Source: Opitutus sp. GAS368
GTDB lineage: Bacteria; Verrucomicrobiota; Verrucomicrobiia; Opitutales; Opitutaceae
Length of the DNA: 64,000 bases
Direction: 5' to 3'
Assembly: GCA_945861645.1 (NCBI GenBank)
Contig: CAMAVZ010000003.1
Span: 28,629 to 92,628 of the forward strand
Shown here: positions 27,362 through 43,327 of the stretch, in pieces
How positions within the stretch are numbered: the stretch's first letter is position 1
Layout of the letters: each line of letters opens with the position of its first letter
Notes under the pieces: generated by a model
What the model saw: only the letters and a program-made list of their open reading frames with translations
What the model was told of the DNA's origin: nothing
The model's database searches: none
Position numbers and translations under genes: made by a program

Positions 27362-27394
27362 AGCGCTCCGGTGCGTGTTCGCCGGCCGAGTTTT

Positions 27395-28383: not shown

Positions 28384-30600
28384 TTATTTTCCGGCTTGAG
28401 CTAAAGCATCGAGGACGATCTGCGGGGTTAGCAGTTCGGGCAGAATGATCGGTTGGAGTTTACCTGGAGCGTAGATTAAATTGAAAGGCACTGCGGAGCG
28501 GTTCCAGCGGGCGAGCTCGGCGGTGATGAGAGGATCACGATTCGTCCAATCGCCGCGGAGTAACACGGTCTGGTGCTGCGCCAGCGCGGCGAGCACGGCG
28601 TCGTGATGGAACACGGTCGCCTTATTCGTTTGGCAAGTGGCGCACCAGCGCGCGGTGAAATCTACATAGACAAATTTGCCCGCGGCTTGAGCTGCAGCTA
28701 TGGCCGCGGGACTCCATTTCTCCCAAGTGACTTGGTAGCTGCCAGCTGTCGTGGGGGCTGCGGTTGTTTGGGGCCAACCCGTATAAAGACCGCTCGCGAG
28801 CAGGAGTGCCGCGCCGATCCGACCGGCTAATTGGCGCTGAGGTTTTCCTGACGCCTGACCAAAACGGCCGTAAGCCCATGCTGCCATCGCGACGAGCACG
28901 AAGCCGAAGGAGATTAACAACAGGGCGTTGTCATCATCCTTAGTCTGGCCGGCGAGTACCCACAACAACCAGCCGACGGTCGCATAAAGGGGGAAGGCCA
29001 TGAATTGTTTAAACGTTTCCATCCATGCGCCAGGCTTGGGGAGCAGTTTGATCGCTTGCGGAAAAATTGAAAACAGCAGGTACGGGAGCGCGAGCCCGAG
29101 GGCGATCGCGGTAAAAATCAGGAAAGCTTGTCCCGCGGAGAGGGACAGCGCCGCGCCCAACGCTGGCGCCAGAAAGGGGGCACTGCAGGGAGTCGCGACG
29201 AGCGTGGCTAAAGCGCCGGTGAAAAATGATCCGGCAAAACCATCCTGCATCTGTAGATTGCCGCCGACACTCGTGGCGGACAGCCCTACTTCAAAAAGCC
29301 CACTTAAGTTGAGGGCAAAAATCAGCAGGAACACGGCCATGCCAAAAACAAAAACGGGCGATTGGAGTTGGAATCCCCAGCCGAGTTGAGCGCCGCCGGC
29401 GCGGAGCATCAAAAGCGCGCCCGCTAGCGCCCAAAATGAAACCAGTACGCCGAGCGTAAAAGTCAGACCATGCGCGGTGATTTTTTTACGGTCATTACCG
29501 GATTGGTTAACGAAGCCGAGGATCTTGATGCCGAGCACGGGGAAAACGCAGGGCATCAGATTCAAGATTAAGCCACCAATGAAAGCCAAGCCGAGGGTGG
29601 CGAGCAAGCTGCTGGGAGCGACGAGTGCAGTGGGCGGCGGGGTCGGGTTGGCTGTTGGGCGCGTGACCGTGGGAAGGGTCGGCCCTGCATCGGCACTGAA
29701 GGCCACATCGATCACCAAACCGCCGTAGCTGGCACCAGCCGACCAGCCATTGGCTGAGGCGAGCACTCCGGTGAGGCGCTTCGTCGTTTTATCAGCGGCG
29801 GCATCGAGCGGCAGAACTAAGACCCAGCCGTCATGGTCAGCGGTCACTTTCGCTAGCTGAGTATAATCGGTGAGGGCATCAGTCGCGAAGAAATGCAGCT
29901 CCGTCGGCTTATGGGTATTACCCGACTTTGGGGTGAGCCGTAGGGTGACATTTTTGTCGTCGTGCGTAGCGGTGAGATTCCACTCGGTGGCGGCGACGGG
30001 GAGTTGCGCCCGAGCCTGAGTAATCGGCTGGGCCCATTGGGCGTCAGGTTGGGCGGTGGAGGCGACGTCGAAAGCGATTTCCAGTTTCGCCTCACCGGGC
30101 ATGCAGACGTCTTGGCACATGAGCCACTCGGTGGCGGCCGCGAGTTTGATTTTTGTGCCGGGAGCCAGGGGCGCGGCAGCGGCCGGTTGGCCGCTCGATG
30201 TTGGGCCTAGATTCTCGCCGGCACGAAGCTCGGGCCGTGCTGGCGGCGTGATTTCCACAAGGAGAAAGGACTCGTCGCTGTAGCCATTGCCCACAATTTT
30301 TCTCGAGGAGTCGCGCAAAATGGTGGGCGTCGGCCATTGAATTTCGCCGGCCTTAAAACCAGCCGGCAAAGTCCAATTGATGGAAGTGGGATAGCCGGTG
30401 CCTGCGGCAATCCAGTAACTGTGCCAGTGCGGGTCGTGCTGCATTCGCAGGGCAATCGTAAATGGCTTGCCCGCTTCGAGGGCGGCAGATGCCGATACGA
30501 GAGAGACCTGGACCGAGCCATTTTTTACTACTGGGGATTCAGCGGCCCAAAGCAGCGCGGGCAGGAGAAACAGAACAGAGAGGTGGCGAAGAAAATTCAT
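28384..30600 (-). CDS. dsbD: DsbD/ScsB-family thiol:disulfide interchange membrane protein
   Basis: Periplasmic Ig-like domain (WHSYW, CQDVCMP), TM domain cysteines (LMPCVFPVL, TPCSAPFL), C-terminal thioredoxin (DFTARWCATC). Confidence 0.9.
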   Translation of the reverse strand: MNFLRHLSVLFLLPALLWAAESPVVKNGSVQVSLVSASAALEAGKPFTIALRMQHDPHWHSYWIAAGTGYPTSINWTLPAGFKAGEIQWPTPTILRDSSRKIVGNGYSDESFLLVEITPPARPELRAGENLGPTSSGQPAAAAPLAPGTKIKLAAATEWLMCQDVCMPGEAKLEIAFDVASTAQPDAQWAQPITQARAQLPVAATEWNLTATHDDKNVTLRLTPKSGNTHKPTELHFFATDALTDYTQLAKVTADHDGWVLVLPLDAAADKTTKRLTGVLASANGWSAGASYGGLVIDVAFSADAGPTLPTVTRPTANPTPPPTALVAPSSLLATLGLAFIGGLILNLMPCVFPVLGIKILGFVNQSGNDRKKITAHGLTFTLGVLVSFWALAGALLMLRAGGAQLGWGFQLQSPVFVFGMAVFLLIFALNLSGLFEVGLSATSVGGNLQMQDGFAGSFFTGALATLVATPCSAPFLAPALGAALSLSAGQAFLIFTAIALGLALPYLLFSIFPQAIKLLPKPGAWMETFKQFMAFPLYATVGWLLWVLAGQTKDDDNALLLISFGFVLVAMAAWAYGRFGQASGKPQRQLAGRIGAALLLASGLYTGWPQTTAAPTTAGSYQVTWEKWSPAAIAAAQAAGKFVYVDFTARWCATCQTNKATVFHHDAVLAALAQHQTVLLRGDWTNRDPLITAELARWNRSAVPFNLIYAPGKLQPIILPELLTPQIVLDALAQAGK

Positions 30601-30765
30601 CGGGCAAGTAGCGGGGAAAGAAATATTTTAGCGAAGGCTAAGTGACAAGATGCGCGAGTCGGCTCCAAAGACAAGACTCTGGCGATAGGCCGATGGGATT
30701 AAAGGACGGATTTATTTGGGCTGGTTTGCCGCAAGCGGGAAAGCTAGAACTCATTCTTTAGATTT

Positions 30766-31305
30766 GTGAACCTACCCCCTAAACCCCCGGCGCCACCTGA
30801 GCAATGGTTCAAGGATGAGGTGCAGCCGCACGGCACCTCCCTGCGGGCATACGTCCGCGGGCGTTTCCCGGGCATACGGGATGTGGACGATGTGGTGCAG
30901 GAATCTTATCTCCGCATTTGGCAGGCACGGGCGCGGCATCCCATTCAGTCGGCGCGGGCCTTTTTATTTCGGATCGCGCGTAATCTCGCCCTCGACACCG
31001 TCCGACACGATCGCCGTTCACCGATAAAGGTCGTAACAGATTTAGCCCACCTGTTCGTCATAGATGATAGACCGGATGCCGCTGCGGCCGCTGCTCGTCA
31101 GCAGGAAATTGCCCTGCTGGTGGCCGCGATTGATGCGCTGCCGGCTCGCTGTCGTGAAATTTTTATTCTCCGTAAACTTCGTGGGGTCTCCCAAAAAGAT
31201 ATCGCTGCCCGGCTCGGGCTTTCCGAGCAAACGGTCCAAGTGCAAGCGGCCCGTGGGTTGCGGCGCGTGGCCGATTCACTCCGCCGGCAACTGAGCCCAC
31301 TATGA
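30766..31305 (+). CDS. ECF (FecI-like) RNA polymerase sigma-70 factor
   Basis: DVDDVVQESYLRIW, AFLFRIARNLALD, LPARCREIFILR...G.SQKDIA.RLGLSEQTV; GTG start. Confidence 0.92.
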   Translation: MNLPPKPPAPPEQWFKDEVQPHGTSLRAYVRGRFPGIRDVDDVVQESYLRIWQARARHPIQSARAFLFRIARNLALDTVRHDRRSPIKVVTDLAHLFVIDDRPDAAAAAARQQEIALLVAAIDALPARCREIFILRKLRGVSQKDIAARLGLSEQTVQVQAARGLRRVADSLRRQLSPL

Positions 31306-32390
31306 GCACTTCTTCGACTTATGGGCAAACTTCCCCGCCGGCGATTGAGGCGGCGGCAGCTGATTGGGTGACGCGCTGTGATGCGGGTCTGACCTCCGCC
31401 GAGCAGCAGATTTTTCAAGATTGGCTGGGCGCAGATGCGCGTCATGCGGATGCCTTTGATCGGCTAACCGAGGCTTGGTCTGTATTTGATCGAGTCCAAG
31501 GCAGCGGGGCAATCAGCGCGGTCCTAGCTGGATTGGCGGTGCGGGCTAGCCAACGGCGCCGGCGTCAGCTGCAAGGAGCGGCCGCGGCTGGGATTATTTT
31601 AGTCAGCGGATTATTTTTCCTGCGCTCTCGTCTTGGGGAAGCTGAGCCAATGAGCCGCCCGGCAGCGAAGGCCCCGATTCAAGAAATCTCGATCGTGGCT
31701 AATAATGCTATTCGTCAGTTGCCAGATGGATCCATTGTAGAGCTGAAAGTGGGGGCAGAAATTTCGGTGCATTATGAGGCGGCAGCGCGTCGCGTAACGC
31801 TCATTAATGGCGAGGCCTATTTTCGCGTAATGAAAGACACGGCTCGCCCATTTTATGTGGAAGCTAACGGCATTGCGGTCCGCGCCGTCGGGACGGCTTT
31901 CTCGGTGCAGCTGCAGCCGTCGGCCGTAGAGATTTTTGTGAAAGAAGGTGCGGTTGATGTCGGGCGCACCGCGGTCGGACGAGCGCCCGCGGGCGGCGAT
32001 AACCGCGTGGTGCGGGTCGTTGCCGGGAAGCGATTTGTCGCTTTGACTAAATTAAGGTTACCCAAATCGATTAAAGGAACGGCCCCCGTTCGCCTGGAAT
32101 CCTTTGCCGAGCCGCAGTTGGTATCTGCAGCGGAGATGGCTCACCAGCTAGCTTGGCGTGATACTCGGCAGGATTTCAACGGCACGACATTGAGCGAAGC
32201 GGTGGCGTTATTAAACCGACATAATGTAACGCAAATATCGATTGAAGATCCGGTGGTGGGCGCCTGGCGCGTCAGCGGGAGTTTTCGCTCGGATAATCCT
32301 GAGGGGTTTGCCCGAATCGTCGGGGAGAGTTTTGACCTGCAAACTGATAAGCAAGGCGAGCACTTGCTTCTATTACGGCGTACGCCCTGA
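31302..32390 (+). CDS. FecR-family anti-sigma/transmembrane sensor
   Basis: EAAAADW...FQDWL.AD.RH N-domain, TM helix, LPDGS.VEL, GEAYF.V.KD..RPF.V, AVGTAF, VSGSF; ATGA overlap with the sigma gene. Confidence 0.92.
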   Translation: MSTSSTYGQTSPPAIEAAAADWVTRCDAGLTSAEQQIFQDWLGADARHADAFDRLTEAWSVFDRVQGSGAISAVLAGLAVRASQRRRRQLQGAAAAGIILVSGLFFLRSRLGEAEPMSRPAAKAPIQEISIVANNAIRQLPDGSIVELKVGAEISVHYEAAARRVTLINGEAYFRVMKDTARPFYVEANGIAVRAVGTAFSVQLQPSAVEIFVKEGAVDVGRTAVGRAPAGGDNRVVRVVAGKRFVALTKLRLPKSIKGTAPVRLESFAEPQLVSAAEMAHQLAWRDTRQDFNGTTLSEAVALLNRHNVTQISIEDPVVGAWRVSGSFRSDNPEGFARIVGESFDLQTDKQGEHLLLLRRTP

Positions 32391-32647
32391 ACTTGAGCAT
32401 CCAAGGGCGGCAAAAATAATTGTAACAGATTTTGCCGGCTGGGGCGTGGTGTAGGAAACCCCTGCGGTCCTCCCTTGGAGTATTTTTACAGCTGAATGCT
32501 TACCCCTGTTATTTTTAAAAAAATATTTGCGAACGATTAGGCAAGGGTATGTTTGTTGCCTTTACGCAACAACTAAGGTTAAAATCTTAGTTAACCTTCA
32601 CTCGACTCGGTCGTCCACATTCTGTGGGGGGCCAATCACAACACACC

Positions 32648-35600
32648 ATGACCCAAGTAATCTCGTTTCCCCGTCTACGAAATCATTACGCGCTAGCAGC
32701 GCTGTGCGCTCTGGCGTTAACACTAGTATCTCATGCAGCTGAGGTTAAGCATTTTAGCATCTCTGCTGCTTCCGCGACCGCCGCGATTAAAGATTTTTCC
32801 AGCCAATCAGGGGGCGAGGTCTTGGTGCCCACGGACGCGGTGGCCGGCATCAGTACCCATGCGGTGGAAGGGGACATGACGCCGCGACAAGCGTTGGAAC
32901 AGATGGTGGCGGGCACGGGGTTGGTTGTCATTCAGGATGAAAAAACCGGAGCCCTTGGTCTGCGCCTTAATCCTGACCGCGCAAAAAACGTCGAGAGCCG
33001 TCAGGTCATGGTGCCGACGGCCAAGGTCACAAAAAGTGAAACGGGCGCCCTTAAGCTTGAGACTTATTCGGTCCTCGGTTCCCGCATTCGGCAAACCGAG
33101 ACCGCTGGCCCTTCCCCCGTTAGTTCATATGATAAAGAATATATTCGGGCTACTGGCTCGATGACGTTGTCAGATTTTCTTAATCAAATCCCGCAAACCT
33201 ATGCGGGTATTGCCTCCGGTCGCGGGAGCGCGCCGAACGAATTGAATCCTGAATTCGGCCAACGTACTGAGACGAGCAATCCGGCGTTCAATCTGGTGCT
33301 AGGCTCATCCGCCGCTCCTCCGGGGCAGACGGGCGTTTCGGGAGTCAGCTTGCGCGGCCTTGGATCTGGCTCGACGCTTGTATTAGTCGATGGCCGGCGG
33401 GCAGCGCAATCGGGTAACGGTAATCGCTCGACGGACACGCGGCAGGGTTTCGTTGATTTGAATACCATTCCGTTAGGCATGGTTGATCGCATTGAGGTCA
33501 TCACTGATGGGGCCTCGGCGATTTATGGTGCCGATGCGGTGGCGGGGGTTATCAACATCATCCTCAAAAAGAATTTCACCGGCACCGAATTATCAGGCGG
33601 CTATAAAGTCTCCCAGCATGGTGGCGGCGCGGAGCGGAATGTTTCCGTCATTAGTGGATTTTCTTATGGAAAATTGAGCGGCTCGGTAGCGATCGAGTAT
33701 TATGACCGAGAAGACCTCAAAGCTGCTCAGCGTTCTTTCTCTAAAAACCAAAATCACACTGGCATTCAGGCTGGCACGCTGACGGCAACCGGCTTGCCTA
33801 AATACGGCGTCGATTGGCGGCTTAATTGGGGCTTCCCAGCTGTAATCCAAGCTTCCGGCGGTACGGTCTCGGGAAATTTTGATGCCCTGCCCGGCGTGCG
33901 CGTTGTGATGGTTCCCGTCGGGGCTACGAGCACCCCAACATTGGCGCAATTTCAGACGGTGCTGACGCCGGCCCCTGGAGCCACGTTGGTGAATGCCTCG
34001 CAGCAGCGCCGAGCCAACACGGCCGAATATCTCGCCTTGATTCCTGAATCAAAGCGAAAGGGCTTGAGCGGTAATTTCAATTATCGCTTTAACGATCATC
34101 TGGATGTTTTCACGAGTCTCCGCACCAGCGAGACGCGCAGTTTTTACACCGCGCAGCCCGGGGCGAATTCGATTACCGGTGGTTTCGGTGCTGCCGTAAC
34201 TTTGCCGGCAGCTTATAATCCATTTAATCAAAATGTGACCATCGGCATGATTCTGCCTGAATGGGGTGCGCAATCCCAGCGCGTGCGGACTTTAGATGAT
34301 GCAATTACGGCTGGCTTGAGGGGTAAGTTTGGCCAGACGTGGGAATGGGAACTCGGGACCAATTGGGAAGAGCAAAAAGTTCGGCAGATCTCGCGTAATT
34401 TTAATCCGGCCCCGTTCGCCGCGATGTTAATCGCCGCCGATCCGGCCCAGCGTTTTAATCCCTTTATCGATTCCAGTGCCCCCGGGGCGCCTTCCCAAGC
34501 GGCCTTGCTCGAGACACTCGCGCTTTATCCGTCGCTGGCCTCAGTTTCCAAGCAGATGGGATTAGATTTTTCCGCCAACGGTAATCTGCTCGACCTCTGG
34601 GGCGGCTCGATGAAAATGGCTGTCGGTGGCTCCAATTTGAAGGGCGAGATGCAGAGCACCGCGGTCAATTATTCTTCCGTGCTGATTCCCGTCGCGACGA
34701 TGACGACTGTCACCGGCGAGCAAACCACGAAGGCCATGTTTGCCGAGTTGAGTGTGCCGATCGTGGGCAAGCCCAATGCGCAGCCGCTGCTGCGTCGTTT
34801 AGATTTAAATCTGGCGGAACGTTATGAAGATAACGGCCGCTTCTCGAAAACGGTGCCGAAGTATGGGGTCTCCTGGACTCCCGTGCAGTCGTTGTTAATC
34901 CGTGCAAATTGGAGCGAGGGCTTCCGGGCCCCTGGCATTACGGAATACATGGTCGCGCCATCAATTGTGACCTCAACCCTGCTCGATCCTCGGCGCACGC
35001 CAACATCGACGACAGGTATCGTGGAATCACGGGGCTCTAATTTAAATCCTCGGCCCGAACTTTCGAAAAACACGTTTGCGGGCATCGTCTATGAGCCCTC
35101 TTGGGTCAAGGGGCTCAGTTTACAGGTTAATTATTATGATACCGTGCAGAAAGATGTGCTGCAGTTGATCACCGCCCAGTCGATCATCAACAATGAGTCG
35201 CTCTTCACTGATCGCATCACGCGGGCCGCGGCCACGCCGGCGGATACCGCACTTAATCAGCCCGGACAAATCACGGCGATCAGTCGCATCTTCGTCAATT
35301 TCGGCCAAGTGGTGAATCGGAGTATGGATTTTGTGGCCGACTATCGTCTGCCTGGGGAGCAATTGGGTCGTTGGCGCTTGAATCTTGCGGCCAGTCGTAC
35401 GCTGGAGGCTACGCGTCAACTGGCCCCGGGTCAGCCGGCGGTTATTCTCGAAGACGACACGGCGGCTCCGCCCAAATGGCGCATCAACGCCGCCGTGTTT
35501 TGGAGTAAAGGGGATTGGAATGCCTCCGCCTTTGTTTCCTATCTGGATGGATTCACGGTCAACAGCGCGGGAAGTAACTTGGTGGCCAATAGTACCGCTG

Positions 35601-35833
35601 TAACTTTTTTCCCTACGCCTTCGATTACCAAACTTGATCTGCGGGCCGGCTATGAATTTCGCAAAGGTCTGTGGCGCGGTTATGGTAAGCGTCTACGCGT
35701 CACGTTGGGCGTAAATAACGTGTTCGATCAAGAGCCGCCGTTCTCCGACACCGTCTGGGGTTTCAATGCCGGCTTACATAGTCAGTTTATTCTCGGCCGC
35801 AGTTACGAGTTCGCCTTCATTCTGCCGCTTTAA
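32648..35833 (+). CDS. TonB-dependent transducer/receptor with N-terminal STN signalling domain
   Basis: Signal peptide; STN-like FSISA..A..AI.DFS.QSG...V.G.MTP..AL..M.AGTGL; plug motifs VLGSRI, LRGLGSGSTLVLVDGRR, DLNTIP, RIEV..DGASAIYGADAVAGVINII; barrel PELS and GVNNVFD. Confidence 0.93.
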   Translation: MTQVISFPRLRNHYALAALCALALTLVSHAAEVKHFSISAASATAAIKDFSSQSGGEVLVPTDAVAGISTHAVEGDMTPRQALEQMVAGTGLVVIQDEKTGALGLRLNPDRAKNVESRQVMVPTAKVTKSETGALKLETYSVLGSRIRQTETAGPSPVSSYDKEYIRATGSMTLSDFLNQIPQTYAGIASGRGSAPNELNPEFGQRTETSNPAFNLVLGSSAAPPGQTGVSGVSLRGLGSGSTLVLVDGRRAAQSGNGNRSTDTRQGFVDLNTIPLGMVDRIEVITDGASAIYGADAVAGVINIILKKNFTGTELSGGYKVSQHGGGAERNVSVISGFSYGKLSGSVAIEYYDREDLKAAQRSFSKNQNHTGIQAGTLTATGLPKYGVDWRLNWGFPAVIQASGGTVSGNFDALPGVRVVMVPVGATSTPTLAQFQTVLTPAPGATLVNASQQRRANTAEYLALIPESKRKGLSGNFNYRFNDHLDVFTSLRTSETRSFYTAQPGANSITGGFGAAVTLPAAYNPFNQNVTIGMILPEWGAQSQRVRTLDDAITAGLRGKFGQTWEWELGTNWEEQKVRQISRNFNPAPFAAMLIAADPAQRFNPFIDSSAPGAPSQAALLETLALYPSLASVSKQMGLDFSANGNLLDLWGGSMKMAVGGSNLKGEMQSTAVNYSSVLIPVATMTTVTGEQTTKAMFAELSVPIVGKPNAQPLLRRLDLNLAERYEDNGRFSKTVPKYGVSWTPVQSLLIRANWSEGFRAPGITEYMVAPSIVTSTLLDPRRTPTSTTGIVESRGSNLNPRPELSKNTFAGIVYEPSWVKGLSLQVNYYDTVQKDVLQLITAQSIINNESLFTDRITRAAATPADTALNQPGQITAISRIFVNFGQVVNRSMDFVADYRLPGEQLGRWRLNLAASRTLEATRQLAPGQPAVILEDDTAAPPKWRINAAVFWSKGDWNASAFVSYLDGFTVNSAGSNLVANSTAVTFFPTPSITKLDLRAGYEFRKGLWRGYGKRLRVTLGVNNVFDQEPPFSDTVWGFNAGLHSQFILGRSYEFAFILPL

Positions 35834-35856
35834 TCACTCAGTGATTATTTTTACGC

Positions 35857-35884
35857 GCCGCCGTGCAACTCTGCGCACGGCGGC
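35857..35884 (+). other. Intercistronic hairpin between the TBDT and the first multi-thioredoxin gene
   Basis: GCCGCCGTGC-aactctgc-GCACGGCGGC, with no U-tract immediately after it. Confidence 0.6.
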
Positions 35885-35904
35885 CTGGCTGTTTTATTTT
35901 AGTT

Positions 35905-38364
35905 ATGAAAAATTTTCTCTGGTCTGTTGCGCTTAGCATTTTTTGTTTAACGGTGATGCCGGCAGGCGCGCAGCCGGCCATCGTGCCGACTTCTACGCCG
36001 AGCGTTCATCATATTGGACCGAAGGTGGGCGAGCTCGCCCCTGATTTTACCGTCGTGGGCCCCGATGGCCAAGCGATCAAACTGGCTGATTTTCGCGGCC
36101 GGACCGTCTTAATCGATATTTGGGCCACCTGGTGCGGGCCGTGCGTGGCTTCCATGCCCCATAACAGCGAACTAGCCGAGCAGCATGCTAAAGACGGTCT
36201 CGTGATCCTGGCGGTCTGCGCCGATGACTCGCGCGCCAATTATGATGGCTGGGTGAAGCGCAACGCCGCTAAATATAAATTTCTCACCGCGCATGATCCG
36301 GCCGGCAAGGACGGTTGGGATAAATCTGTTTTTAATACTCAGTATGGTGTCAGTGGCTTCCCCACGCTTTTCCTGATCGACAAAGACGGGAAGGTGGTCG
36401 GCTCCACCTCCGGCGGTGGCCCGGGCGAAAACCCGCACGTCACGCGCCTGCTCGCCAAGGGTGGCGTGCCGGTCGATACCTCGCATTTACCACCGGAGGA
36501 AAAACGTGAGCGTCAGTCCATTCCCATGATAGGCAAGACGGCGGCAACGCTGATTGGGGCTATTCCTGCCAGTGGAAAATCTGCCGCTGCGCGCCCGCCA
36601 ACCATTCGGTTAGGCTCACTTAAATTTGATGACCAGGTGGCCGATTTCGCCGCTATCGGCGTGGACGGCAAGGAAGTGAAGCTCTCGTCCTTCAAGGGCA
36701 AGCCGGTGCTTATTTCCTTCTGGACCGGAGCGCGTTCGCCCAACGAAGATTTTGCTAAGCTTGCGGCCAATTATAAAGATCAGGGTTTAGCGGTATGGGC
36801 CATCAACGTTGCCACGGATCGCGCTGAATTCGACGCCTGGGCAAAAGCGAATGCGGCTGGCCTGGGTTATACCGTCGCTTGGGATCCAGCAGGGAAGGCC
36901 GTCATGGAGTCCCTTTCCTATATGAAATTTGGCATCGGCATGTATCCCGCTTTCATGGTGGTGAATGCCGGCGGCTATTTTCGCGGTGGCCTGATTGGCA
37001 TGGGCCCAAAGATCGCTGGTTGGATGCGCGCAAGCTTGCAGGTCGCTGATCTTAAGCTCACCGCCGAAGATAAGGCGGCGGCGGATAAAGTTATGGCCGA
37101 AATTTTTGCGGCTCGCGATCAACCGGCCGCGGTTGCCGCCGGCGGGGTGATGGCTGCCGCTACGATCATACCCATGCCTAATAATCCGGCCGCGGCGCCG
37201 AAGGCCGCGTTGCTCGCCGTCGGCGCAATCGCCCCCGATTTTCTGATGAAGGATGTCGCGGCCAAGGATGTCCGTCTTTCCGATTTTAAAGGCAAGGTAG
37301 TGATCCTCGATTTTTGGGCCACTTGGTGTGGACCGTGCATTAGCTCATTTCCGCATACTCAGGAAATCGCCGCGAAATATAAAGACCAGGATGTCATTGT
37401 GCTGGGCGCTGGAACGAGCGACTCGATTGCGAAATTCCAGGAATGGATTCCTAAGAATCAGGCAAAATATCCTGACATTCGCTTCGCGTACGATCTGCAC
37501 GAACGCGAATCGCTCAATTTTGAAGAACGCGCTTCCGCAAAGCTCTATCATGTGGTGGGCATTCCGACGCAGTTTGTGATCGGCCGCGATGGTAAGATCA
37601 CCGGCGTGGTAGTGGGTAATGGCGGAGCGGGGGATGCTCGGACCGAATTTGCGCTGGCCGCCGCGGGGGTGAAAGTGAGTGACGCGATTCTGGCGCAGGG
37701 CAAGGAGCAGGTGGGTAAGCAGGAACAAGCCCGCGCAGCGAGCACGGCGGCGGCAATCAAGAAACCCAAGGCTCCCTTCTACGAAAGTTACGGCAAACTC
37801 AAAGCGGGCGAATTGGTGCCCGACTTCACGGTGCTTACCCCTGAAGGCAAAGAGGCCAAATTTTCTGACTACGCCAAGGGCAAGACGGTCATTCTTGATT
37901 TTTGGGCCACCTGGTGCGGGCCGTGCCAAAAGGCCATGCCGCACTACGAAGAGATCCACCGCAAGTATGGCTCTAAGGGCGTAGTTATTTTCGGGGTCTG
38001 CGGTTTCGACACCCGCGCGAACTACGACAAGTGGCTAATCGAAAATAAAAATAAATATACTTTCGCTACAGTCTTTGATCCGGTCGGTAAACCACCCTCA
38101 GGGGACAAAGAAGCGATGCGTAAGACGATCATGATGCAGCTGACTCGCGGAGCGGTCACGCCGCTGCCGACGACGCTCGTCATCAATTCCGCGGGCAAGC
38201 TGGTCGGGTCCTATGTCGGCTACAGCGAAGCCACGCACGACGGCTTGGCTAATTTACTCATGATCGCTGGCGTCGAGCTAGCGAGAGAAGACCAGCCCAA
38301 AGTATTTTTCCCGTCGGGCTATACCGCCAAACCGGCGATCACGCCGGCCGCGGTGGCCAAGTAA
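35905..38364 (+). CDS. Exported multi-domain TlpA/redoxin protein (4 thioredoxin-fold domains, 3 with WCGPC)
   Basis: Signal peptide; four (A/V)PDF...G(K/R)..lxxW units. WATWCGPC at ~36121, ~37315 and ~37902; domain 2 has FWTGARSP instead. Confidence 0.88.
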   Translation: MKNFLWSVALSIFCLTVMPAGAQPAIVPTSTPSVHHIGPKVGELAPDFTVVGPDGQAIKLADFRGRTVLIDIWATWCGPCVASMPHNSELAEQHAKDGLVILAVCADDSRANYDGWVKRNAAKYKFLTAHDPAGKDGWDKSVFNTQYGVSGFPTLFLIDKDGKVVGSTSGGGPGENPHVTRLLAKGGVPVDTSHLPPEEKRERQSIPMIGKTAATLIGAIPASGKSAAARPPTIRLGSLKFDDQVADFAAIGVDGKEVKLSSFKGKPVLISFWTGARSPNEDFAKLAANYKDQGLAVWAINVATDRAEFDAWAKANAAGLGYTVAWDPAGKAVMESLSYMKFGIGMYPAFMVVNAGGYFRGGLIGMGPKIAGWMRASLQVADLKLTAEDKAAADKVMAEIFAARDQPAAVAAGGVMAAATIIPMPNNPAAAPKAALLAVGAIAPDFLMKDVAAKDVRLSDFKGKVVILDFWATWCGPCISSFPHTQEIAAKYKDQDVIVLGAGTSDSIAKFQEWIPKNQAKYPDIRFAYDLHERESLNFEERASAKLYHVVGIPTQFVIGRDGKITGVVVGNGGAGDARTEFALAAAGVKVSDAILAQGKEQVGKQEQARAASTAAAIKKPKAPFYESYGKLKAGELVPDFTVLTPEGKEAKFSDYAKGKTVILDFWATWCGPCQKAMPHYEEIHRKYGSKGVVIFGVCGFDTRANYDKWLIENKNKYTFATVFDPVGKPPSGDKEAMRKTIMMQLTRGAVTPLPTTLVINSAGKLVGSYVGYSEATHDGLANLLMIAGVELAREDQPKVFFPSGYTAKPAITPAAVAK

Positions 38365-38397
38365 ATTTTTGCATACCCAGCCGTTTTTCCCCCGATC

Positions 38398-40224
38398 ATG
38401 AAATTAATTCATTCACTCGTATTTGGTGTTTTCAGCTGCGTTGCCACTCTGGCTTGGGCCCAGATGCAAACGGCAAAGTCAGTTAACCAACCAATCGCTA
38501 CGCTCGCCGCTGGCGCGGTCGCGCCAGATTTCGCGATGCATGACATTCACGACCAGGAGGTCCGCCTTTCGTCCTTCAAGGGCAAAGTCGTCATTCTCGA
38601 TTTCTGGGCGACGTGGTGCGGACCATGCATCGCCTCGATGCCGCACACCGATGAGATCGCCGCGAAATACAAGGATCAGGAGGTCGTCGTCGTGGCCTCC
38701 GGCACGAGCGACACCATCGCCATGTTCAAGCAATGGATTCCGGCGAACCAGTCGAAATTTCCAAACCTGCAATTCTTTTTTGACCTCAACGAGCGCGGCG
38801 CAGCCACCTTCGAGGAGCGGGCTTCGAGCAAGCTTTACGGGGTCGTTGGCATTCCCTCGCAGTTTGTCGTTGGTCGGGATGGTGTGATCACGGCGACGAT
38901 TGTCGGCAACGGCGGTAAAGAGGACGCCCGCACAGAGGCTGCGCTAGCGAGGGCGGGGGTGAAAGTGGATGCCGCGCGCGTTGCCGCGGGAGAGAGGCAG
39001 CTTAAGGCTGCTGCAGAGGATGCGGCCGACCGTCTGGCCGCGATCGAGGAGGAGAAAAAAAATCCCAAGCCAAAATTCCGTGAAGGCTTTGCTCAGCTGC
39101 AGCGAGGTTTGCCAGTGCCAGATTTTACCGCGCAGGCTGTTGATGGCTCTGCGGTCAAATTTTCTGAGCTCACTCAGGGCAAGACGGTGGTGTTGATGGT
39201 CTGCTCGGCGCGTGGCGCTCGGCCTGACGATATGGTGGCTTTTCAAGATGCTTGGGCCCGCCGCTATGCCGATCAGGGCGTCCTGTTTGTCGAGCTCGCC
39301 GCTTATGGCTCACGCGCTGACTTTGATAAGTATCATGCACCTGCGGCCGCCAAGCTGGCCTATCCGGTGCTGTTCGACCCGGCCGGGGCGGCGCCGAAGC
39401 CGGCCAAAGAGTCCATGGACGAAATGACAGCCGAGGATAAAAAAGCTTTCCGGGAGGCCAATCGCGCGCACTACAGCAAGGTCATCCCCATGGCGTTCTC
39501 TGGCGGCGCCATGGCGCCGGTCCCGAACAATATTGTCATCGACGCCCAAGGCAAATTCCTCGGTTTCTATGTGGGCAGTGGCCCGCAGAGCGCCGAATCA
39601 CTCGGCAATTTGCTCCTCCGCGCGGGGGTGAAGCTAAAGCCGGAAGATAGGCCAAAGAAGATCTTCTCCGCGGAGGAGACAAAGGAGAAGCCGCCGGAGG
39701 CCAAGGTGCCGATGCTGAAAATTGGTGACGCGGCCCCTGATTTTATCGCCACCGACGCCACCGGCAAAGCCGTGAAGATTTCTGATTATCGCGGCAAGGT
39801 CGTCATTCTTGATTTTTGGGCTACCTGGTGCGGACCCTGTATCGCTTCGATGCCGCATACTCAGGAAGTGGCGGCTCATTACAAAAATCAAGGAGTCGTG
39901 GTGCTGGCTTCGTGCACCTCCGATGATCGCAAGAAATTCGATACTTGGGTGAAGCGGAATCAGGAACAGTATCCCGATATTAATTTTTCGCATGATCCGC
40001 AGGAGCGCGGGCCTAATCGGGCCTCGCATAAACTCTACGGGGTCGGCGGCATCCCGCAGCAGTTCATCATCGATCGTGACGGCAAAGTCGCTGCGCTCGT
40101 CACCGGCTACCTCAAGGGCGAGTCCATTCTCGATGCCGCGCTGGCGAAGGCTGGAATCAAGGTTGATCCCGCTCTCATCGCCAAAGGCGCCGAGGATCTA
40201 AAAAAGCGCGAGTCCATGCGCTGA
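38398..40224 (+). CDS. Exported multi-domain TlpA/redoxin protein (3 thioredoxin-fold domains, 2 with WCGPC)
   Basis: Signal peptide; WATWCGPC at ~38605 and ~39817; middle domain has VCSARGARP. Confidence 0.88.
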   Translation: MKLIHSLVFGVFSCVATLAWAQMQTAKSVNQPIATLAAGAVAPDFAMHDIHDQEVRLSSFKGKVVILDFWATWCGPCIASMPHTDEIAAKYKDQEVVVVASGTSDTIAMFKQWIPANQSKFPNLQFFFDLNERGAATFEERASSKLYGVVGIPSQFVVGRDGVITATIVGNGGKEDARTEAALARAGVKVDAARVAAGERQLKAAAEDAADRLAAIEEEKKNPKPKFREGFAQLQRGLPVPDFTAQAVDGSAVKFSELTQGKTVVLMVCSARGARPDDMVAFQDAWARRYADQGVLFVELAAYGSRADFDKYHAPAAAKLAYPVLFDPAGAAPKPAKESMDEMTAEDKKAFREANRAHYSKVIPMAFSGGAMAPVPNNIVIDAQGKFLGFYVGSGPQSAESLGNLLLRAGVKLKPEDRPKKIFSAEETKEKPPEAKVPMLKIGDAAPDFIATDATGKAVKISDYRGKVVILDFWATWCGPCIASMPHTQEVAAHYKNQGVVVLASCTSDDRKKFDTWVKRNQEQYPDINFSHDPQERGPNRASHKLYGVGGIPQQFIIDRDGKVAALVTGYLKGESILDAALAKAGIKVDPALIAKGAEDLKKRESMR

Positions 40225-40483
40225 ATGGGCCGGTTAATTTTAAACGTTCCTCATCACCGATCAGCCGTGCCGACCACTGCTTGGACGCGGCTGAATTGCC
40301 TGGTTTCTCGGCCAGGCCGGGCCCACGGTGAAGCATCAGGTCAGCGCCGGTTGGCGAAAATTTGGGCTATCTTCTCGGATGCGGCTGATCGCGGCCTTGC
40401 GCGAGCCAGCGTAAGCTGGGTTTGCTGGTTGCATCTGTTTCCTGCCTCAATTTGCGTAACAATTCCTTTGGTTGATATATTCT

Positions 40484-43327
40484 ATGAAAATTAAATTATC
40501 GCTCCTCATTGCTTTTCAATTGGGGCTATCGGTGCTGGTCGCAGCCGCCTTGGCGCGACCTTTTGCGCAAGCGACGAGCGATCTGCCGGTTGATCCGGCG
40601 GCGCATTTTGGCACGCTCCCGAATGGGGTGCGGTACGTCATCTACCCCAACAAGGAACCGCGGGGCCGTGCCTCGCTGCGCTTACTCGTCGAGGCCGGCT
40701 CACTGATGGAGAACGAAGATCAACGCGGCGTCGCACATTTTCTCGAGCACATGGCCTTCAATGGTAGCAAGCACTATGCGCCGGGCACGCTCGTGGAGTT
40801 TTTCCAGCGCATGGGTATGAGCTTGGGGGGCGACACGAATGCGTCCACTGGGCTTGATCGCACGCAATATTTGCTGGAGCTGCCGCACACGGATGGCGCG
40901 ACCTTATCGGAGGGGTTGCGGGTGTTGACCGATTACGCGAGCGGCCTGTTGCTCCTCGATGCAGAAATTAATAAAGAGCGGGGCATTATCATGAGCGAGA
41001 AGCGCACCCGCGACAATGTGGGCTACCGCACCTTCATCGCGCAGTTCGAATTTATGCTGGGCGACACGCGCCTGCCCAAGCGGCTCCCCATCGGCCTGCC
41101 TGAGGTTATTGAACAGGCGCCGCGGGCGCGTTTCACCGAGTTTTGGGACACGTGGTATCGCCCAGAGAAAATCGGGATCGTGGCAGTTGGTGATTTTGAC
41201 CCAGTGGTCGTCGAGCAACTGATTATTGCCGCGTTCACGCCTCTTGTGGCTCGTGCCCCCGCGGCCCCTGCGCCGACACTGGGTGTAGTGCCGCAATTCG
41301 ACGGCGTTCGGGCCCATTTTCATGCGGAACCAGAAGCGTCCTCGACTGGAGTGAAGATGACCAACTTGACGCCATTTGTCGATGAACCCGACACCGCCGC
41401 GAATCGAGTTAAGGAACTCCCGCGTCAGATTGCGCTGGCGATCCTCAACCGCCGGTTCAGCGAACTCGTTAAGAAGGAGGGCGCTCCCTTCAGTGCGGCC
41501 CGGGCCAGCGTCTCTAAGGCGTATCGTTTCATACGCGAAGCGAGCATCGAACTCACCTGCAAACCCGAGCAGTGGCCTGCGGCCCTGGCCGTCGGCGAGC
41601 AAGAATTGCGCCGCGCGCTCGAGCACGGCTTCCAGCCCAGCGAGCTGAAGGAGATCGTCGCCACGTTTACCAACGGCCTTGATCAAGCCGTCAAGACCGC
41701 GGCCACGCGCCAATCTCATGCCCTGGCTGACGAAATTCTCGGCGGCCTCTTCGATCAGGAAGTCTTTACCCATCCCGTCGCTGAGCGCGCCCTTTATCAG
41801 CCGGCCCTCGACCAAGTCTCCTTGGCCGATTGCCAAGCCGCGCTCCGTCGCGCTTTCGCGGCGCCCGGTCTCTTCGTGATGGTGACGGGCAATGTCCTCA
41901 TTCCCGGTGAGGCCAATGCGACGATTGCCGTGGCCTTTGAAAAATCCCGCGCTACCCCCGTTGCGGCACCGACCGCGCAGGCCGAGTCCGTTTGGGCTTA
42001 CGCCCAGTGGGGCGCTCCGGGAAAAGTGGTGCAGCGCACGCGGGTCGCTGATCTCGACGTGGAGCTGGTGAGTTTTGCCAACGGCGTAAAATTAAACCTC
42101 AAGAAAACTGACTTCGAGGCCGGCCGCATCCGCACGGGGGTGCGCGTGGGCAGCGGCACCATCACTGAACCGGCCGGTCAGCGCGGTCTAGCGGCGCTCG
42201 CCGGCGGCACGTTTGGCGCGGGCGGTCTGAGCCAGCATAGCGCGGATGAACTGCGCCGGCTGTTCGCCGGTAAAAATGTCAGTGTGCAGTTCCAGCCGGG
42301 CAGCGATGCCTTTAACTTCACCGGCGGCACCACCTCTGGCGACCTTAGCTTGCAGCTGCAGCTCCTGGCCGCCCTGCTCACGGACGCCGGCTGGCGCCCG
42401 GAAGCGCTGCGGCAGGCGCAGAAAAGCATGGAGCAAATGTATCTCGGATTTGAGCACACGGCCAATGGCCCGATGGCCACCGAGGTGGCCAATTTGCTCG
42501 CCAATGGCGACCCGCGCTTCGGCCTGCCGGCCCAGGAAGTGATGATGTCCCGCAATCTCGTCGAGGCCAAGGCCTGGCTCGCGTCGCAGCTGGCGCATGG
42601 TGCACTCGAGGTCTCGCTCGTGGGCGACCTTGAGATCGAGGCCGCCATTGCCGCCGTGGCGCAAACGCTCGGCGCGCTCCCACCCCGCGAGCCCAAGCCC
42701 GCGCTCGACGCGTTGAAAAAAATCTCCTTCCCCGCGACGCCCTTCACTAAGAGCTACACCATCGCGTCCGAAATCCCCAAGGGTAATGTGGCCATCTATT
42801 GGCCGACGACCGATGGCTTCGACGTCAAGCGCGCCCGCCGGCTTAATCTGCTGGCTAGCGTGCTCAACGACCGCTTGCGCGTGAAAGTGCGCGAGGAAAT
42901 CGGCGGCACCTACACCCCGAATGCCGGCAGCAACGCCAGCGACACCTTCCCGAGCTACGGTTACATCCAGGCCGGCTGCGTGGTAGATCCGGCATTGGCG
43001 GATAAAATTACGGCAGTGATTATTGCTCTCGGGGATGATCTTGCGCAGCGCGGGGTGACACCTGAAGAGCTCAATCGGGCGCGTCAGCCCGCGCTCACAG
43101 CGGCTAAAGAGTCATCGCGGACCAATAGTTATTGGGGCGGCACGGTGTTGGCTCGCGCGCAAGAAAAGCCTGAGGCCTTGGATTGGGCCCGCACGCGTTT
43201 GCCCGATCTAGAAGCCATTACGCCGGCAGAATTAAGCATTCTCGCCAAAACTTATCTTAGCGCTGACCGTGCCTCGCGGGTAAAAATATTACCAGCTGTT
43301 GGGGTAAAAACTCCCGCCCGTCCGTAA
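40484..43327 (+). CDS. Exported M16 (insulinase/pitrilysin; PqqL/FusC-like) zinc protease
   Basis: GTLPNGVRY, AHFLEHMAFNG (HxxEH), NAST, ERGII.SE, WYRP, second-half FANG..L and VREE.G.TY; signal peptide. Confidence 0.93.
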   Translation: MKIKLSLLIAFQLGLSVLVAAALARPFAQATSDLPVDPAAHFGTLPNGVRYVIYPNKEPRGRASLRLLVEAGSLMENEDQRGVAHFLEHMAFNGSKHYAPGTLVEFFQRMGMSLGGDTNASTGLDRTQYLLELPHTDGATLSEGLRVLTDYASGLLLLDAEINKERGIIMSEKRTRDNVGYRTFIAQFEFMLGDTRLPKRLPIGLPEVIEQAPRARFTEFWDTWYRPEKIGIVAVGDFDPVVVEQLIIAAFTPLVARAPAAPAPTLGVVPQFDGVRAHFHAEPEASSTGVKMTNLTPFVDEPDTAANRVKELPRQIALAILNRRFSELVKKEGAPFSAARASVSKAYRFIREASIELTCKPEQWPAALAVGEQELRRALEHGFQPSELKEIVATFTNGLDQAVKTAATRQSHALADEILGGLFDQEVFTHPVAERALYQPALDQVSLADCQAALRRAFAAPGLFVMVTGNVLIPGEANATIAVAFEKSRATPVAAPTAQAESVWAYAQWGAPGKVVQRTRVADLDVELVSFANGVKLNLKKTDFEAGRIRTGVRVGSGTITEPAGQRGLAALAGGTFGAGGLSQHSADELRRLFAGKNVSVQFQPGSDAFNFTGGTTSGDLSLQLQLLAALLTDAGWRPEALRQAQKSMEQMYLGFEHTANGPMATEVANLLANGDPRFGLPAQEVMMSRNLVEAKAWLASQLAHGALEVSLVGDLEIEAAIAAVAQTLGALPPREPKPALDALKKISFPATPFTKSYTIASEIPKGNVAIYWPTTDGFDVKRARRLNLLASVLNDRLRVKVREEIGGTYTPNAGSNASDTFPSYGYIQAGCVVDPALADKITAVIIALGDDLAQRGVTPEELNRARQPALTAAKESSRTNSYWGGTVLARAQEKPEALDWARTRLPDLEAITPAELSILAKTYLSADRASRVKILPAVGVKTPARP

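What the first reader, a model, noticed from the sequence alone, without database searches (positions are those of the whole stretch)
28384..43327. Candidate undescribed system: signal-inducible TonB import coupled to a multi-thioredoxin reduction relay and an M16 protease
Seen: dsbD (minus) is divergent from a co-oriented run of ECF sigma, FecR, STN-type TBDT, a 4-domain TlpA protein, a 3-domain TlpA protein and an M16 protease. The TBDT, both TlpA proteins and the protease have signal peptides. Established: FecI/FecR/STN-TBDT triads induce their operon when the ligand binds the transporter; DsbD feeds cytoplasmic electrons to periplasmic TlpA-type thioredoxins; TBDT plus M16 protease pairs import and degrade proteins (Pectobacterium FusA/FusC; E. 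coli YddB/PqqL). Inference: the locus takes up a disulfide-stabilised protein or peptide, reduces it with five WCGPC centres recharged by DsbD, and cleaves it. The purpose could be nutrient/metal scavenging or detoxifying cysteine-rich peptides. I do not recall this combination being described for FecIR-type loci.
Basis: partly seen in the sequence, partly recalled or inferred. Interest (0 to 1): 0.88.

Follow-up and report, generated by a model that had tools for sequence, protein, structure and literature searches.

The report
TonB importer coupled to disulfide reductases
A lake bacterium carries a gene island in which an outer-membrane importer always travels with large multi-thioredoxin reductases next to the cell's electron supplier DsbD, which points to an undescribed "import, then reduce" route for disulfide-containing nutrients.

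Summary

Comparative genomics splits the locus into layers:
- **Core:** the transporter (TBDT1) plus the multi-domain TlpA reductase. In 151 Opitutaceae genomes, 25 have both, 2 have only one, 2 only the other, and 122 neither. The two genes lie within 5 kb in 20 of the 25, despite inversions.
- **dsbD:** a single-copy core gene. The pair lies within about 15 kb of it in 15 of 25.
- **ECF sigma/FecR:** optional, and present exactly when the transporter has its N-terminal signalling domain (18 of 18 against 0 of 9).
- **M16 protease:** PqqL/FusC-like, an accessory paralogue linked to the island only in this genus. In relatives it has its own small LuxR-type regulator, which is a truncated relic here.

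The transporter is not FusA-like. Related sigma-FecR-SusC-SusD-TlpA loci are common in Bacteroidota (7 in one Pedobacter genome). My eight literature searches found no paper describing either form.

Import coupled to periplasmic disulfide reduction is well supported as an inference. The proteolysis step and the nature of the substrate remain open. I class it as a new variant of known import systems, of moderately high interest.

The parts
28384..30600 (-). dsbD: membrane electron transporter with three Cys pairs. It is the only DsbD_TM gene found in this 84%-complete genome.
   Evidence: Pfam matches to DsbD_N, DsbD_TM and Thioredoxin_7. Six Cys in three pairs. A single DsbD_TM match in G000. 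It is a core gene: 62 of 65 genus genomes and 140 of 151 family genomes.
30766..31305 (+). ECF sigma factor, FecI-like in role
   Evidence: Sigma70_r2 and r4_2. The NCBIfam sigma70-ECF superfamily model scores above its cut-off. Found upstream of every TBDT1 orthologue that has the N-terminal extension (18 of 18).
31302..32390 (+). FecR-type anti-sigma factor
   Evidence: DUF4880 plus FecR. Its start overlaps the sigma stop by 4 nt.
32422..32447 (+). Putative ECF-type promoter, GTAACAGATTT-N10-GGGCGT. It is the only copy in the window.
   Evidence: Conserved at the same place in 9 loci: the window plus L027, L028, L030, L032, L039, L040, L041 and L043. One match in 64 kb, against 0.11 expected by chance.
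32624..35833 (+). TBDT1: TonB-dependent transporter with an N-terminal STN signalling domain and a TonB-box-like ETYSVLG at residue 146. The probable start is the ATG at 32648.
   Evidence: Plug, barrel and STN matches. Model with pLDDT 70. No Cys in the mature protein. Orthologues in 18 of 65 genus genomes and 27 of 151 family genomes.
35863..38364 (+). TlpA4: secreted protein with four thioredoxin folds. Domains 1, 3 and 4 carry WCGPC; domain 2 has lost it. Probable start at 35905.
   Evidence: Four AhpC-TSA/Redoxin stretches. Domain alignment. WCGPC at residues 90, 488 and 684.
38398..40224 (+). TlpA3: secreted protein with three thioredoxin folds. Domains 1 and 3 carry WCGPC; domain 2 has lost it.
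   Evidence: The AlphaFold2 model (pLDDT 86.3) shows three thioredoxin folds, with a long helix joining the first two. Foldseek matches only single-domain DsbE/ResA/Etrx/TlpA chains.
40295..40414 (+). Relic: the last 39 codons of a small LuxR/GerE-type regulator gene that is intact in relatives
   Evidence: Translation. The intact 80-aa gene L027:6045-6287 matches GerE at E 7e-9. Upstream alignment.
40472..43327 (+). Secreted four-domain M16 metallopeptidase of the PqqL/FusC type (HFLEH). Probable start at 40484.
   Evidence: Peptidase_M16 plus M16_C. PDB sequence matches: 9ldy 7e-70, PqqL 6ofs 1e-54, 6b03 3e-33. It is an accessory paralogue (at least 71% identity) in 19 of 65 genus genomes.

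Best explanation
This is an accessory import-and-reduce island, inserted between the core genes dsbD and an HD-phosphohydrolase gene.

Proposed steps (all function is inferred from sequence and conserved linkage):
1. An unknown ligand binds the STN-type TonB-dependent transporter.
2. The signal passes through FecR to the ECF sigma factor.
3. The sigma factor fires the single promoter in front of the transporter gene and the two TlpA genes behind it.
4. The transporter brings in a disulfide-bearing substrate, most likely a cysteine-rich peptide or small protein.
5. In the periplasm, two soluble multi-thioredoxin proteins reduce its disulfides. Together they have five thioredoxin-type WCGPC centres and two non-catalytic thioredoxin-like domains that may hold the substrate, as the b domains of PDI do.
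6. The neighbouring DsbD, the only one found in the genome, recharges them.
7. In this genus, an accessory PqqL/FusC-type M16 peptidase in the same island probably cuts the unfolded product. That step is under separate control and is not part of the conserved core.
For: **Linkage of TBDT1 and multi-TlpA.**
- In 151 family genomes: both 25, TlpA only 2, TBDT1 only 2, neither 122.
- The pair lies within 5 kb in 20 of the 25, in co-directional, convergent and divergent orders.
- In the genus, all 16 multi-TlpA genomes fall among the 18 TBDT1 genomes, and 15 of the 16 pairs are adjacent.

**A second, unrelated cassette repeats the theme.** It has TBDT2 (27% identical to TBDT1) with its own sigma, FecR and a 353-aa TlpA.

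**dsbD proximity.** dsbD lies within about 15 kb of the pair in 15 of 25 genomes in other arrangements.

**The link is specific.** Among 80 loci chosen only for a TlpA-like domain, 5 had a TBDT in the flanks, and all 5 were Bacteroidota.

**The locus's own proteins offer no disulfide target.** The mature TBDT has no Cys.

**Reductase character.** WCGPC is the thioredoxin motif (established knowledge). The three-fold model has pLDDT 86.

**M16.**
- It is PqqL/FusC-like.
- The accessory copy occurs only in the island, next to either cassette. The core paralogue has no TBDT, TlpA or DsbD within 8 kb in 3 of 3 genomes checked.
- A different M16 (30% identical, HYLEH) sits beside a 5-domain TlpA and dsbD in another lineage.

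**Prior work.** TBDT plus M16 import systems are established (PMC6793856: abstract and section 6 read).

**Expression (weak).** Contigs from four lake RNA libraries cover the genes and cross the TBDT stop codon and the TlpA3-M16 gap.
Against: - No experiment bears on this, and the substrate is unknown.
- M16 is linked to the pair in 0 of 22 other-genus genomes.
- M16 lies upstream of sigma in G052 and G053.
- In relatives M16 has its own LuxR-type gene or a conserved palindrome-like site. In the window it has no second ECF promoter.
- In the window's small-genome clade this is the only M16 of its family, so it may be housekeeping there.
- The TBDT is not FusA- or YddB-like. Neither is among the 18 PDB sequence matches or the listed best Foldseek rows.
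- dsbD is a core, sole gene, so part of the proximity may be inherited synteny.
- No inner-membrane transporter for the products lies in the island.
- RNA contigs cannot prove a single transcript, and DNA carry-over is possible.
Confidence: 0.5

Rival explanations
1. The transporter and reductases act together, but on a non-protein substrate: a small organic disulfide or polysulfide, or a metal complex released by thiol chemistry. The M16 peptidase is an unrelated neighbour.
For: - M16 is absent from the pair in 0 of 22 other-genus genomes.
- In Bacteroidota, none of the 7 Pedobacter sigma-FecR-SusC-SusD-TlpA loci gave an M16 or DsbD match.
- FecIR-type loci classically serve metal chelates (established knowledge).
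- The flank holds two EamA-type exporters. In one relative a PLP enzyme of the cysteine-synthase fold family lies next to dsbD.
Against: - Five to seven tandem thioredoxin folds, including conserved non-catalytic ones, look excessive for a small molecule and resemble polypeptide-handling PDI.
- Two different M16 paralogues have been recruited beside multi-TlpA genes.
- A subtilase lies beside a multi-TlpA gene in a Planctomycetota locus.
Confidence: 0.2
2. A Fus-like piracy system. The transporter imports a metalloprotein or iron-sulfur protein from algae or cyanobacteria, M16 degrades it to free the metal, and the reductases help release it.
For: - M16 is of the PqqL/FusC type.
- The Fus precedent exists, and its authors suggest that redox enzymes may replace the protease in some clusters (PMC6793856, section 6).
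- The habitat is lake water.
Against: - The TBDT is not FusA-like.
- No FusB-like TonB or FusD-like ABC gene lies between dsbD and the HD gene.
- The M16 linkage is confined to one genus.
- I neither looked for nor found evidence of iron regulation.
Confidence: 0.1
3. There is no link to import. The multi-TlpA proteins are envelope redox-maintenance enzymes, repairing oxidised periplasmic proteins or feeding peroxidases or Msr enzymes. They cluster around dsbD, and the transporter cassette merely shares this variable spot.
For: - The ground state of the site already holds dsbD with a single-domain TlpA gene in several relatives.
- The nearest solved folds include Etrx1/2. That these feed a methionine sulfoxide reductase is recalled, not tested.
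- dsbD is the sole electron supplier.
Against: - Multi-TlpA and TBDT1 co-occur 25/2/2/122 and stay adjacent through rearrangements, even where dsbD is on another contig or 41 kb away.
- Two unrelated TBDT families and the Bacteroidota SusC genes show the same pairing.
- No Msr or peroxidase gene lies in the island.
Confidence: 0.15
4. Pure chance: an insertion hot spot between dsbD and the HD gene collected unrelated genes.
For: The dsbD-HD interval is variable within the genus. It is empty, or holds one or two cassettes, with or without M16.
Against: The same gene pair recurs in at least 15 genera, with changed order and orientation.
Confidence: 0.05

Closest known systems
Protease-associated import systems: FusA/FusC of Pectobacterium and YddB/PqqL of E. 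coli (Grinter et al. 2019, PMC6793856; abstract and section 6 read)
   Same: A large TonB-dependent transporter sits near a secreted four-domain M16 peptidase. The M16 here matches PqqL (1e-54) and the 6b03/6b05/6brs chains (about 3e-33) over its full length. That those three entries are FusC is my recollection.
   Different: - The transporter is not a FusA/YddB relative.
- There is no FusB or FusD.
- The M16 link holds only within one genus.
- The conserved partner is a multi-thioredoxin reductase plus DsbD. The words thioredoxin, disulfide and anti-sigma do not occur in that paper's main text; I could not see its supplementary table.
FecI/FecR/FecA-type cell-surface signalling
   Same: An ECF sigma factor, a FecR anti-sigma factor (DUF4880 plus FecR) and a transporter with an N-terminal STN domain. 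There is one ECF-type promoter in front of the transporter gene. STN and sigma/FecR are gained and lost together.
   Different: The cargo genes are periplasmic reductases rather than binding-protein/ABC uptake genes. The ligand is unknown. The sigma and FecR scores against the FecI/FecR equivalog models are far below their cut-offs.
DsbD/ScsB-driven periplasmic reductive pathways (DsbD to CcmG, ResA or TlpA)
   Same: The DsbD has the three canonical Cys pairs. The TlpA domains match ResA/TlpA/DsbE models and folds.
   Different: Known TlpA/ResA/CcmG proteins are single-domain and usually membrane-anchored, with dedicated endogenous clients such as cytochrome c or Sco. These proteins are soluble, have 3 to 5 tandem folds, and are genetically tied to a transporter.
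Bacteroidota ECF sigma / anti-sigma / SusC / SusD loci carrying TlpA-family genes
   Same: The order is sigma-FecR-STN-TBDT-(SusD)-TlpA, found in Pedobacter (7 loci in one genome) and in a Bacteroides MAG. In the Bacteroides locus a protein with a DsbD_N domain follows.
   Different: - They have a SusD partner.
- The TlpA proteins have one catalytic domain behind TPR or DUF4369 regions.
- No M16 or dsbD match was found within the 20 kb fetched.
- I found no functional study of them.
Eukaryotic protein disulfide isomerase (a-b-b'-a')
   Same: Tandem thioredoxin folds in which catalytic domains alternate with non-catalytic ones: a-b-a-b-a in the usual roughly 1000-aa relatives, and a-b-a-a plus a-b-a here.
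   Different: The motif is WCGPC (thioredoxin-type, reducing) rather than WCGHC. The score against the PDI family model is 76 bits against a cut-off of 344. The resemblance is one of architecture only, not membership.

Membership tests
FecI/FecR/FecA-type cell-surface signalling unit | ECF sigma factor gene next to a FecR-type anti-sigma gene | tested here: met
   Sigma70_r2/r4_2, and DUF4880 plus FecR. The two genes overlap by 4 nt.
FecI/FecR/FecA-type cell-surface signalling unit | Transporter with an N-terminal STN signalling domain ahead of the TonB box | tested here: met
   The Pfam STN match has E 4.7e-5 but is below the curated cut-off. The model shows a folded domain at residues 34-107. 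The extension is present in 18 of 18 orthologues with sigma/FecR and in 0 of 9 without.
FecI/FecR/FecA-type cell-surface signalling unit | Ligand-dependent induction of the transporter operon | not testable with these tools
   I found only a conserved promoter-like motif and RNA-library contigs.
Protease-associated import system (Fus / YddB-PqqL) | Transporter of the FusA/YddB family | tested here: not met
   FusA and YddB chains are not among the 18 PDB sequences matched at E 0.001 or better, nor among the listed best Foldseek rows (model pLDDT 70).
Protease-associated import system (Fus / YddB-PqqL) | Periplasmic four-domain M16 peptidase of the PqqL/FusC type with HxxEH | tested here: met
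   Full-length matches to 9ldy, 6ofs and 6b03. HFLEH at residue 89.
Protease-associated import system (Fus / YddB-PqqL) | Conserved genetic association of transporter and protease | tested here: inconclusive
   Within the genus, 14 of the 19 genomes with the accessory M16 also have TBDT1, and 3 more have TBDT2 adjacent. In other genera the figure is 0 of 22.
DsbD family | Three domains, each with a redox Cys pair | tested here: met
   DsbD_N, DsbD_TM and Thioredoxin_7. Cys pairs 162/166, 351/472 and 653/656. The score against the DsbD subfamily model is below its cut-off (115 against 330 bits), so it is a divergent member.
TlpA/ResA/DsbE periplasmic thiol-disulfide reductases | Thioredoxin fold with a CxxC motif and a cis-Pro loop, exported | tested here: met
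   The ResA subfamily model scores above its cut-off for both proteins (264 and 190 bits against 170). Fold matches to DsbE, ResA and TlpA. Motifs.
TlpA/ResA/DsbE periplasmic thiol-disulfide reductases | Single catalytic domain (the architecture of the characterised members) | tested here: not met
   Four and three tandem folds. No multi-domain chain appears among the Foldseek matches, where TM-score relative to the query is about 0.2.
Protein disulfide isomerase family | Match to the PDI family model; WCGHC motif | tested here: not met
   The ER_PDI_fam model scores 76 and 52 bits against a cut-off of 344. The motif is WCGPC.

The most novel reading that the evidence does not exclude
TonB-dependent transporters paired with dedicated periplasmic thioredoxin-type reductases form a widespread, unstudied class of "reductive import" systems. 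After uptake, disulfide-locked peptides, proteins or glycopeptides are unlocked by DsbD-powered reductases before they are degraded.

The Opitutaceae form uses a bacterial PDI-like a-b-a-b-a protein. The Bacteroidota form uses single-domain TlpA proteins behind SusCD pairs, many times per genome.
Probability: 0.4. Interest if true: 0.8.

Novelty: new variant of a known kind. Interest (0 to 1): 0.62.

Why it matters
TonB-dependent import followed by periplasmic processing is known for glycans (Sus-like loci) and for ferredoxin (Fus). A reduction step has not been described in the library I could search.

If it is real, it would:
- explain dozens of unannotated sigma/FecR/TBDT/TlpA loci per genome in soil and gut Bacteroidota, and the roughly 1000-aa "redoxin domain-containing proteins" of freshwater Opitutaceae;
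- identify a route by which bacteria use the protease-resistant, cysteine-rich fraction of dissolved organic matter, or defence peptides;
- provide a natural, soluble, multi-site periplasmic reductase with a PDI-like layout.

It is directly testable, because cultured Opitutaceae encode the module. One search names a homologue from Oleiharenicola lentus.

Tried and rejected
- **First alignment for the collection scan.** Seven domains including the degenerate ones had no stretch conserved enough to search with. I re-made it with the five catalytic domains.
- **First home-made TBDT profile.** It was built from Opitutaceae sequences only and missed SusC proteins. I replaced it with a Plug profile that included two SusC sequences. 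That profile may still under-count, so the figure of 5 of 80 loci is a lower bound.
- **Closest solved TBDT.** The sequence search gave only Plug-region matches. The fold search gave generic TBDT matches. Neither suggests a substrate class. Partial NCBIfam matches to haem/transferrin receptor models are far below their cut-offs, and I did not use them.
- **Rfam.** No family was matched in 27000-45000.
- **Repeats.** I found only the internal repeats of the thioredoxin domains and no flanking mobile-element repeats.
- **Promoter and terminator scan.** The counts were no higher than in shuffled sequence.
- **Earlier notes of this scan.** Nothing for this genome or for look-alike sequences. The word search gave leads in other genomes only.
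- **Literature.** Eight searches found no paper describing a TBDT-TlpA or TBDT-TlpA-M16 system. In one search the term SusC also matched "susceptible", so that search was noisy.
- **RNA contigs.** Parts of the locus without cover say nothing either way.
- **Complex prediction.** I did not run it.
Full report
**1. What is there**

The window is contig C3:28629-92628 of a 2.30-Mb assembly in 116 contigs, 84% complete. Names attached to close protein homologues place it in the Opitutaceae, Verrucomicrobiota. The DNA occurs in lake and freshwater metagenomes.

- dsbD on the minus strand.
- Diverging from it: ECF sigma, FecR, an STN-Plug-barrel TonB-dependent transporter (TBDT1), a four-fold and a three-fold TlpA/ResA-type protein, and a four-domain M16 peptidase.

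Further details:
- DsbD has exactly the three canonical Cys pairs.
- Aligning the seven thioredoxin folds shows five WCGPC centres and two folds that have lost the motif.
- M16 has HFLEH. Over its full length it matches an unnamed M16 structure (9ldy, 7e-70), PqqL (6ofs, 1e-54) and 6b03/6b05/6brs (about 3e-33). That the last three are FusC is my recollection.
- The flanks are an ABC exporter and two EamA genes on one side, and an HD phosphohydrolase and PfkB kinases on the other.

**2. The conserved core is the transporter plus the multi-thioredoxin reductase**

Within the genus (65 genomes):
- dsbD is found in 62.
- A multi-domain TlpA is found in 16.
- A TBDT1 orthologue, at least 46% identical, is found in 18.
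- All 16 TlpA genomes are among the 18 TBDT1 genomes.
- The two genes lie within 2.5 kb on one contig in 15 of the 16. In G062 they are on different contigs.
- The two TBDT1-only genomes are fragmented drafts.

In an even draw of 151 family genomes, with the same handles in all four searches:
- 25 have both genes, 2 have only the TlpA, 2 have only TBDT1, and 122 have neither.
- Of the 25, the pair lies within 5 kb in 20, is 15.7 kb apart in 1, and is on different contigs in 4.
- The matches span at least 15 genera.
- The order varies: co-directional, convergent, divergent, or with dsbD in between. That argues for selection on linkage rather than frozen synteny.

Kin are not independent, so I give no statistics.

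Outside the family, no multi-domain TlpA at E 1e-45 or better was found in 275 genomes of the phylum. Only 4 candidates per genome were scored in that search.

The usual form is a single protein of about 1000 aa laid out a-b-a-b-a. The split into a 4-fold and a 3-fold gene seen here also occurs in two other genera.

**3. The other layers**

*dsbD.* It is a core gene (140 of 151 family genomes) and the only DsbD_TM gene found in this assembly. The pair lies within about 15 kb of it in 15 of 25 genomes, 41 kb away in 1, and on other contigs in 9.

*The empty site.* I fetched 20 genus loci around dsbD from genomes without the block. None had a TBDT1, FecR, sigma or M16 match. In 9 of them the HD gene lies 0.2-4.1 kb from dsbD, with at most one single-domain TlpA gene between. 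The block is therefore an insertion between two core genes, and M16 is not a core neighbour of dsbD.

*sigma/FecR.* I tabulated 29 TBDT1 loci and set two aside, one split between two fetched pieces and one at a contig start. Of the other 27, 18 have the N-terminal extension and all 18 have FecR and sigma just upstream. The remaining 9 lack the extension and none has them.

*The promoter.* A motif, GTAACAGATTT-N9/10-GGGGCGT, is conserved in front of TBDT1 in 9 loci. It occurs once in the 64-kb window, at 32422-32447.

**4. The protease is a lineage-specific addition**

The genus has two M16 classes:
- One is about 55% identical to the window's protein and is present in most genomes. In 3 of 3 genomes checked it lies away from any TBDT, TlpA or dsbD.
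- The other is an accessory class, at least 71% identical, in 19 of 65 genomes.

Of the 19 accessory-class genomes:
- 14 also have TBDT1. M16 lies within 8 kb of it in 11, and on another contig in 3.
- 3 have M16 directly after a second cassette of sigma (47%), FecR (33%), TBDT2 (27%) and a 353-aa TlpA.
- 1 (G047) has it divergent from dsbD, with a third TBDT and three TlpA genes of about 400 aa on the other side.
- 1 is a contig fragment.

Evidence that M16 is not a conserved member of the unit:
- In other genera, the window-type M16 is near the pair in 0 of 22 genomes.
- In G052 and G053 it lies upstream of sigma.
- In several relatives an 80-aa LuxR/GerE gene precedes it. The window keeps only the last 39 codons of that gene, at 40295-40414. 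This explains the 250-nt "gap".
- Other relatives have a conserved site, TTAGGACACATGGCCCATAGGC, there.
- The window's small-genome clade has only this one M16 of the family.

Evidence in favour of a reductase-protease link:
- A different M16 (30% identical, HYLEH) lies beside a 5-domain TlpA and dsbD in another lineage.
- A subtilase lies beside a multi-TlpA gene in a Planctomycetota locus.

**5. Structure and relatives**

- The 3-fold TlpA models well (pLDDT 86.3). It forms three thioredoxin folds, with a long helix (residues 192-221) joining the first two.
- Foldseek finds only single-domain DsbE, ResA, Etrx and TlpA chains.
- TBDT1 models moderately (pLDDT 70). Its best fold matches are generic: PfeA, PirA, FpvA, Cir, PhuR, BtuB, a SusC and TbpA. 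FusA and YddB are not among the listed best rows or the PDB sequence matches.
- The mature TBDT has no cysteine, and FecR has one, in its N-terminal part. The reductases' client is therefore not an obvious locus protein.

**6. The theme exists elsewhere**

I selected 80 loci only for a TlpA-like catalytic domain. Five had a TBDT in the flanks, and all five are Bacteroidota (a lower bound).

Two of them read sigma-FecR-STN-SusC-SusD-TlpA. In the Bacteroides locus a DsbD_N-containing protein follows.

One Pedobacter genome has 28 Redoxin matches and 113 Plug matches. All 7 loci I fetched from it have FecR-SusC-SusD-TlpA, with one or two TlpA genes; sigma was detected in 6 of the 7. None gave an M16 or DsbD match.

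The combination of FecIR, TBDT and TlpA is therefore common. What is particular here is the multi-domain reductase, the dsbD neighbourhood and the M16.

**7. Literature**

Grinter et al. 2019 (PMC6793856; abstract and section 6 read) describe FusA-like TBDT and M16 clusters in Proteobacteria. They note that redox enzymes (cytochrome c peroxidases) replace the protease in some clusters. The words thioredoxin, disulfide, anti-sigma, Verrucomicrobia and Bacteroidetes do not occur in the main text. I could not see its supplementary table.

Eight searches found no description of a TBDT-TlpA system. A thioredoxin-dependent protease precedent exists: PsbO is degraded by HhoA after reduction (PMC3446894; abstract only).

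**8. Expression**

Contigs from four lake metatranscriptome libraries, from three studies and 95-100% alike, cover dsbD, TBDT1, both TlpA genes and M16.
- One contig runs 33257-35895, across the TBDT stop codon.
- One runs 39517-40612, across the TlpA3 stop and the M16 start. It skips 40283-40376, so it is a strain variant with a larger deletion in the LuxR relic.

Contigs cannot show a single transcript, and DNA carry-over is possible. This is weak support only.

**9. Verdict**

It overreaches on the protease, the Fus analogy and the uniqueness of the combination.

I put 0.5 on the import-reduce(-cleave) reading. The rivals are:
- a non-protein substrate, 0.2;
- metalloprotein piracy, 0.1;
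- envelope redox maintenance without import, 0.15;
- chance, 0.05.

It is a new variant of known TBDT-plus-periplasmic-processing systems.

Noticed in passing
window 40295-40414 (+); L027:6045-6287 (-): The 250-nt gap between the 3-domain TlpA gene and the M16 gene holds the last 39 codons of a small LuxR/GerE-type regulator gene. The gene is intact (80 aa) in close relatives. An RNA-library contig from a related strain lacks a further 94 nt (40283-40376).
   Followed up: yes
L035, L036, L044, L045, L037, L042 (relatives): A second cassette lies in the same dsbD-HD interval: sigma (47%), FecR (33%), a TBDT only 27% identical to the window's, then one to three TlpA proteins of 350-420 aa whose N-terminal 220-270 residues match no Pfam family. 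It is often followed by the accessory M16. It is present in 9 of 65 genus genomes.
   Followed up: partly
L040, L043, L035, L036, L044, L034, L038: about 60-100 nt upstream of the M16 start: A conserved site, TTAGG(A/C)CACATGGCCCATAGGC, lies in front of the accessory M16 gene in seven relatives. It is absent from the window and its two closest relatives. It may be an operator.
   Followed up: no
L173:3817-6795 (+) and L071:11781-14744 (-): A different four-domain M16 peptidase (HYLEH; about 30% identical to the window's; the two copies are 85% identical to each other) lies next to a 5-domain TlpA gene and dsbD in another Opitutaceae lineage.
   Followed up: partly
L073:3791-7981 (+) and 9335-12847 (+): In a Planctomycetota MAG, a multi-domain TlpA protein (44% identical to the window's 3-domain protein over its whole length) lies just downstream of a large subtilase with proprotein-convertase P domains.
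   Followed up: no
window 26396-28258; L037:4750-5886 (-): Two EamA-family transporter genes flank dsbD throughout the genus. In one complete genome a PLP-dependent enzyme (PALP family) lies between dsbD and the first cassette. Together these might form a thiol-redox neighbourhood.
   Followed up: no
window 32624-32648: The listed GTG start of the TBDT ORF is probably not used. Close relatives have an in-frame TAA in this leader, and the conserved start is the ATG at 32648.
   Followed up: partly
G374 (genome of L130): L150-L156: One Pedobacter genome has at least seven paralogous FecR-SusC-SusD-TlpA loci, with one or two TlpA genes each; sigma was detected in six of the seven. I found no functional study of this locus type.
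   Followed up: partly
window 36097-39917: Five direct repeats of about 125 nt, 60-76% identical, mark the five catalytic thioredoxin domains. They show that the two genes arose by internal duplication.
   Followed up: partly
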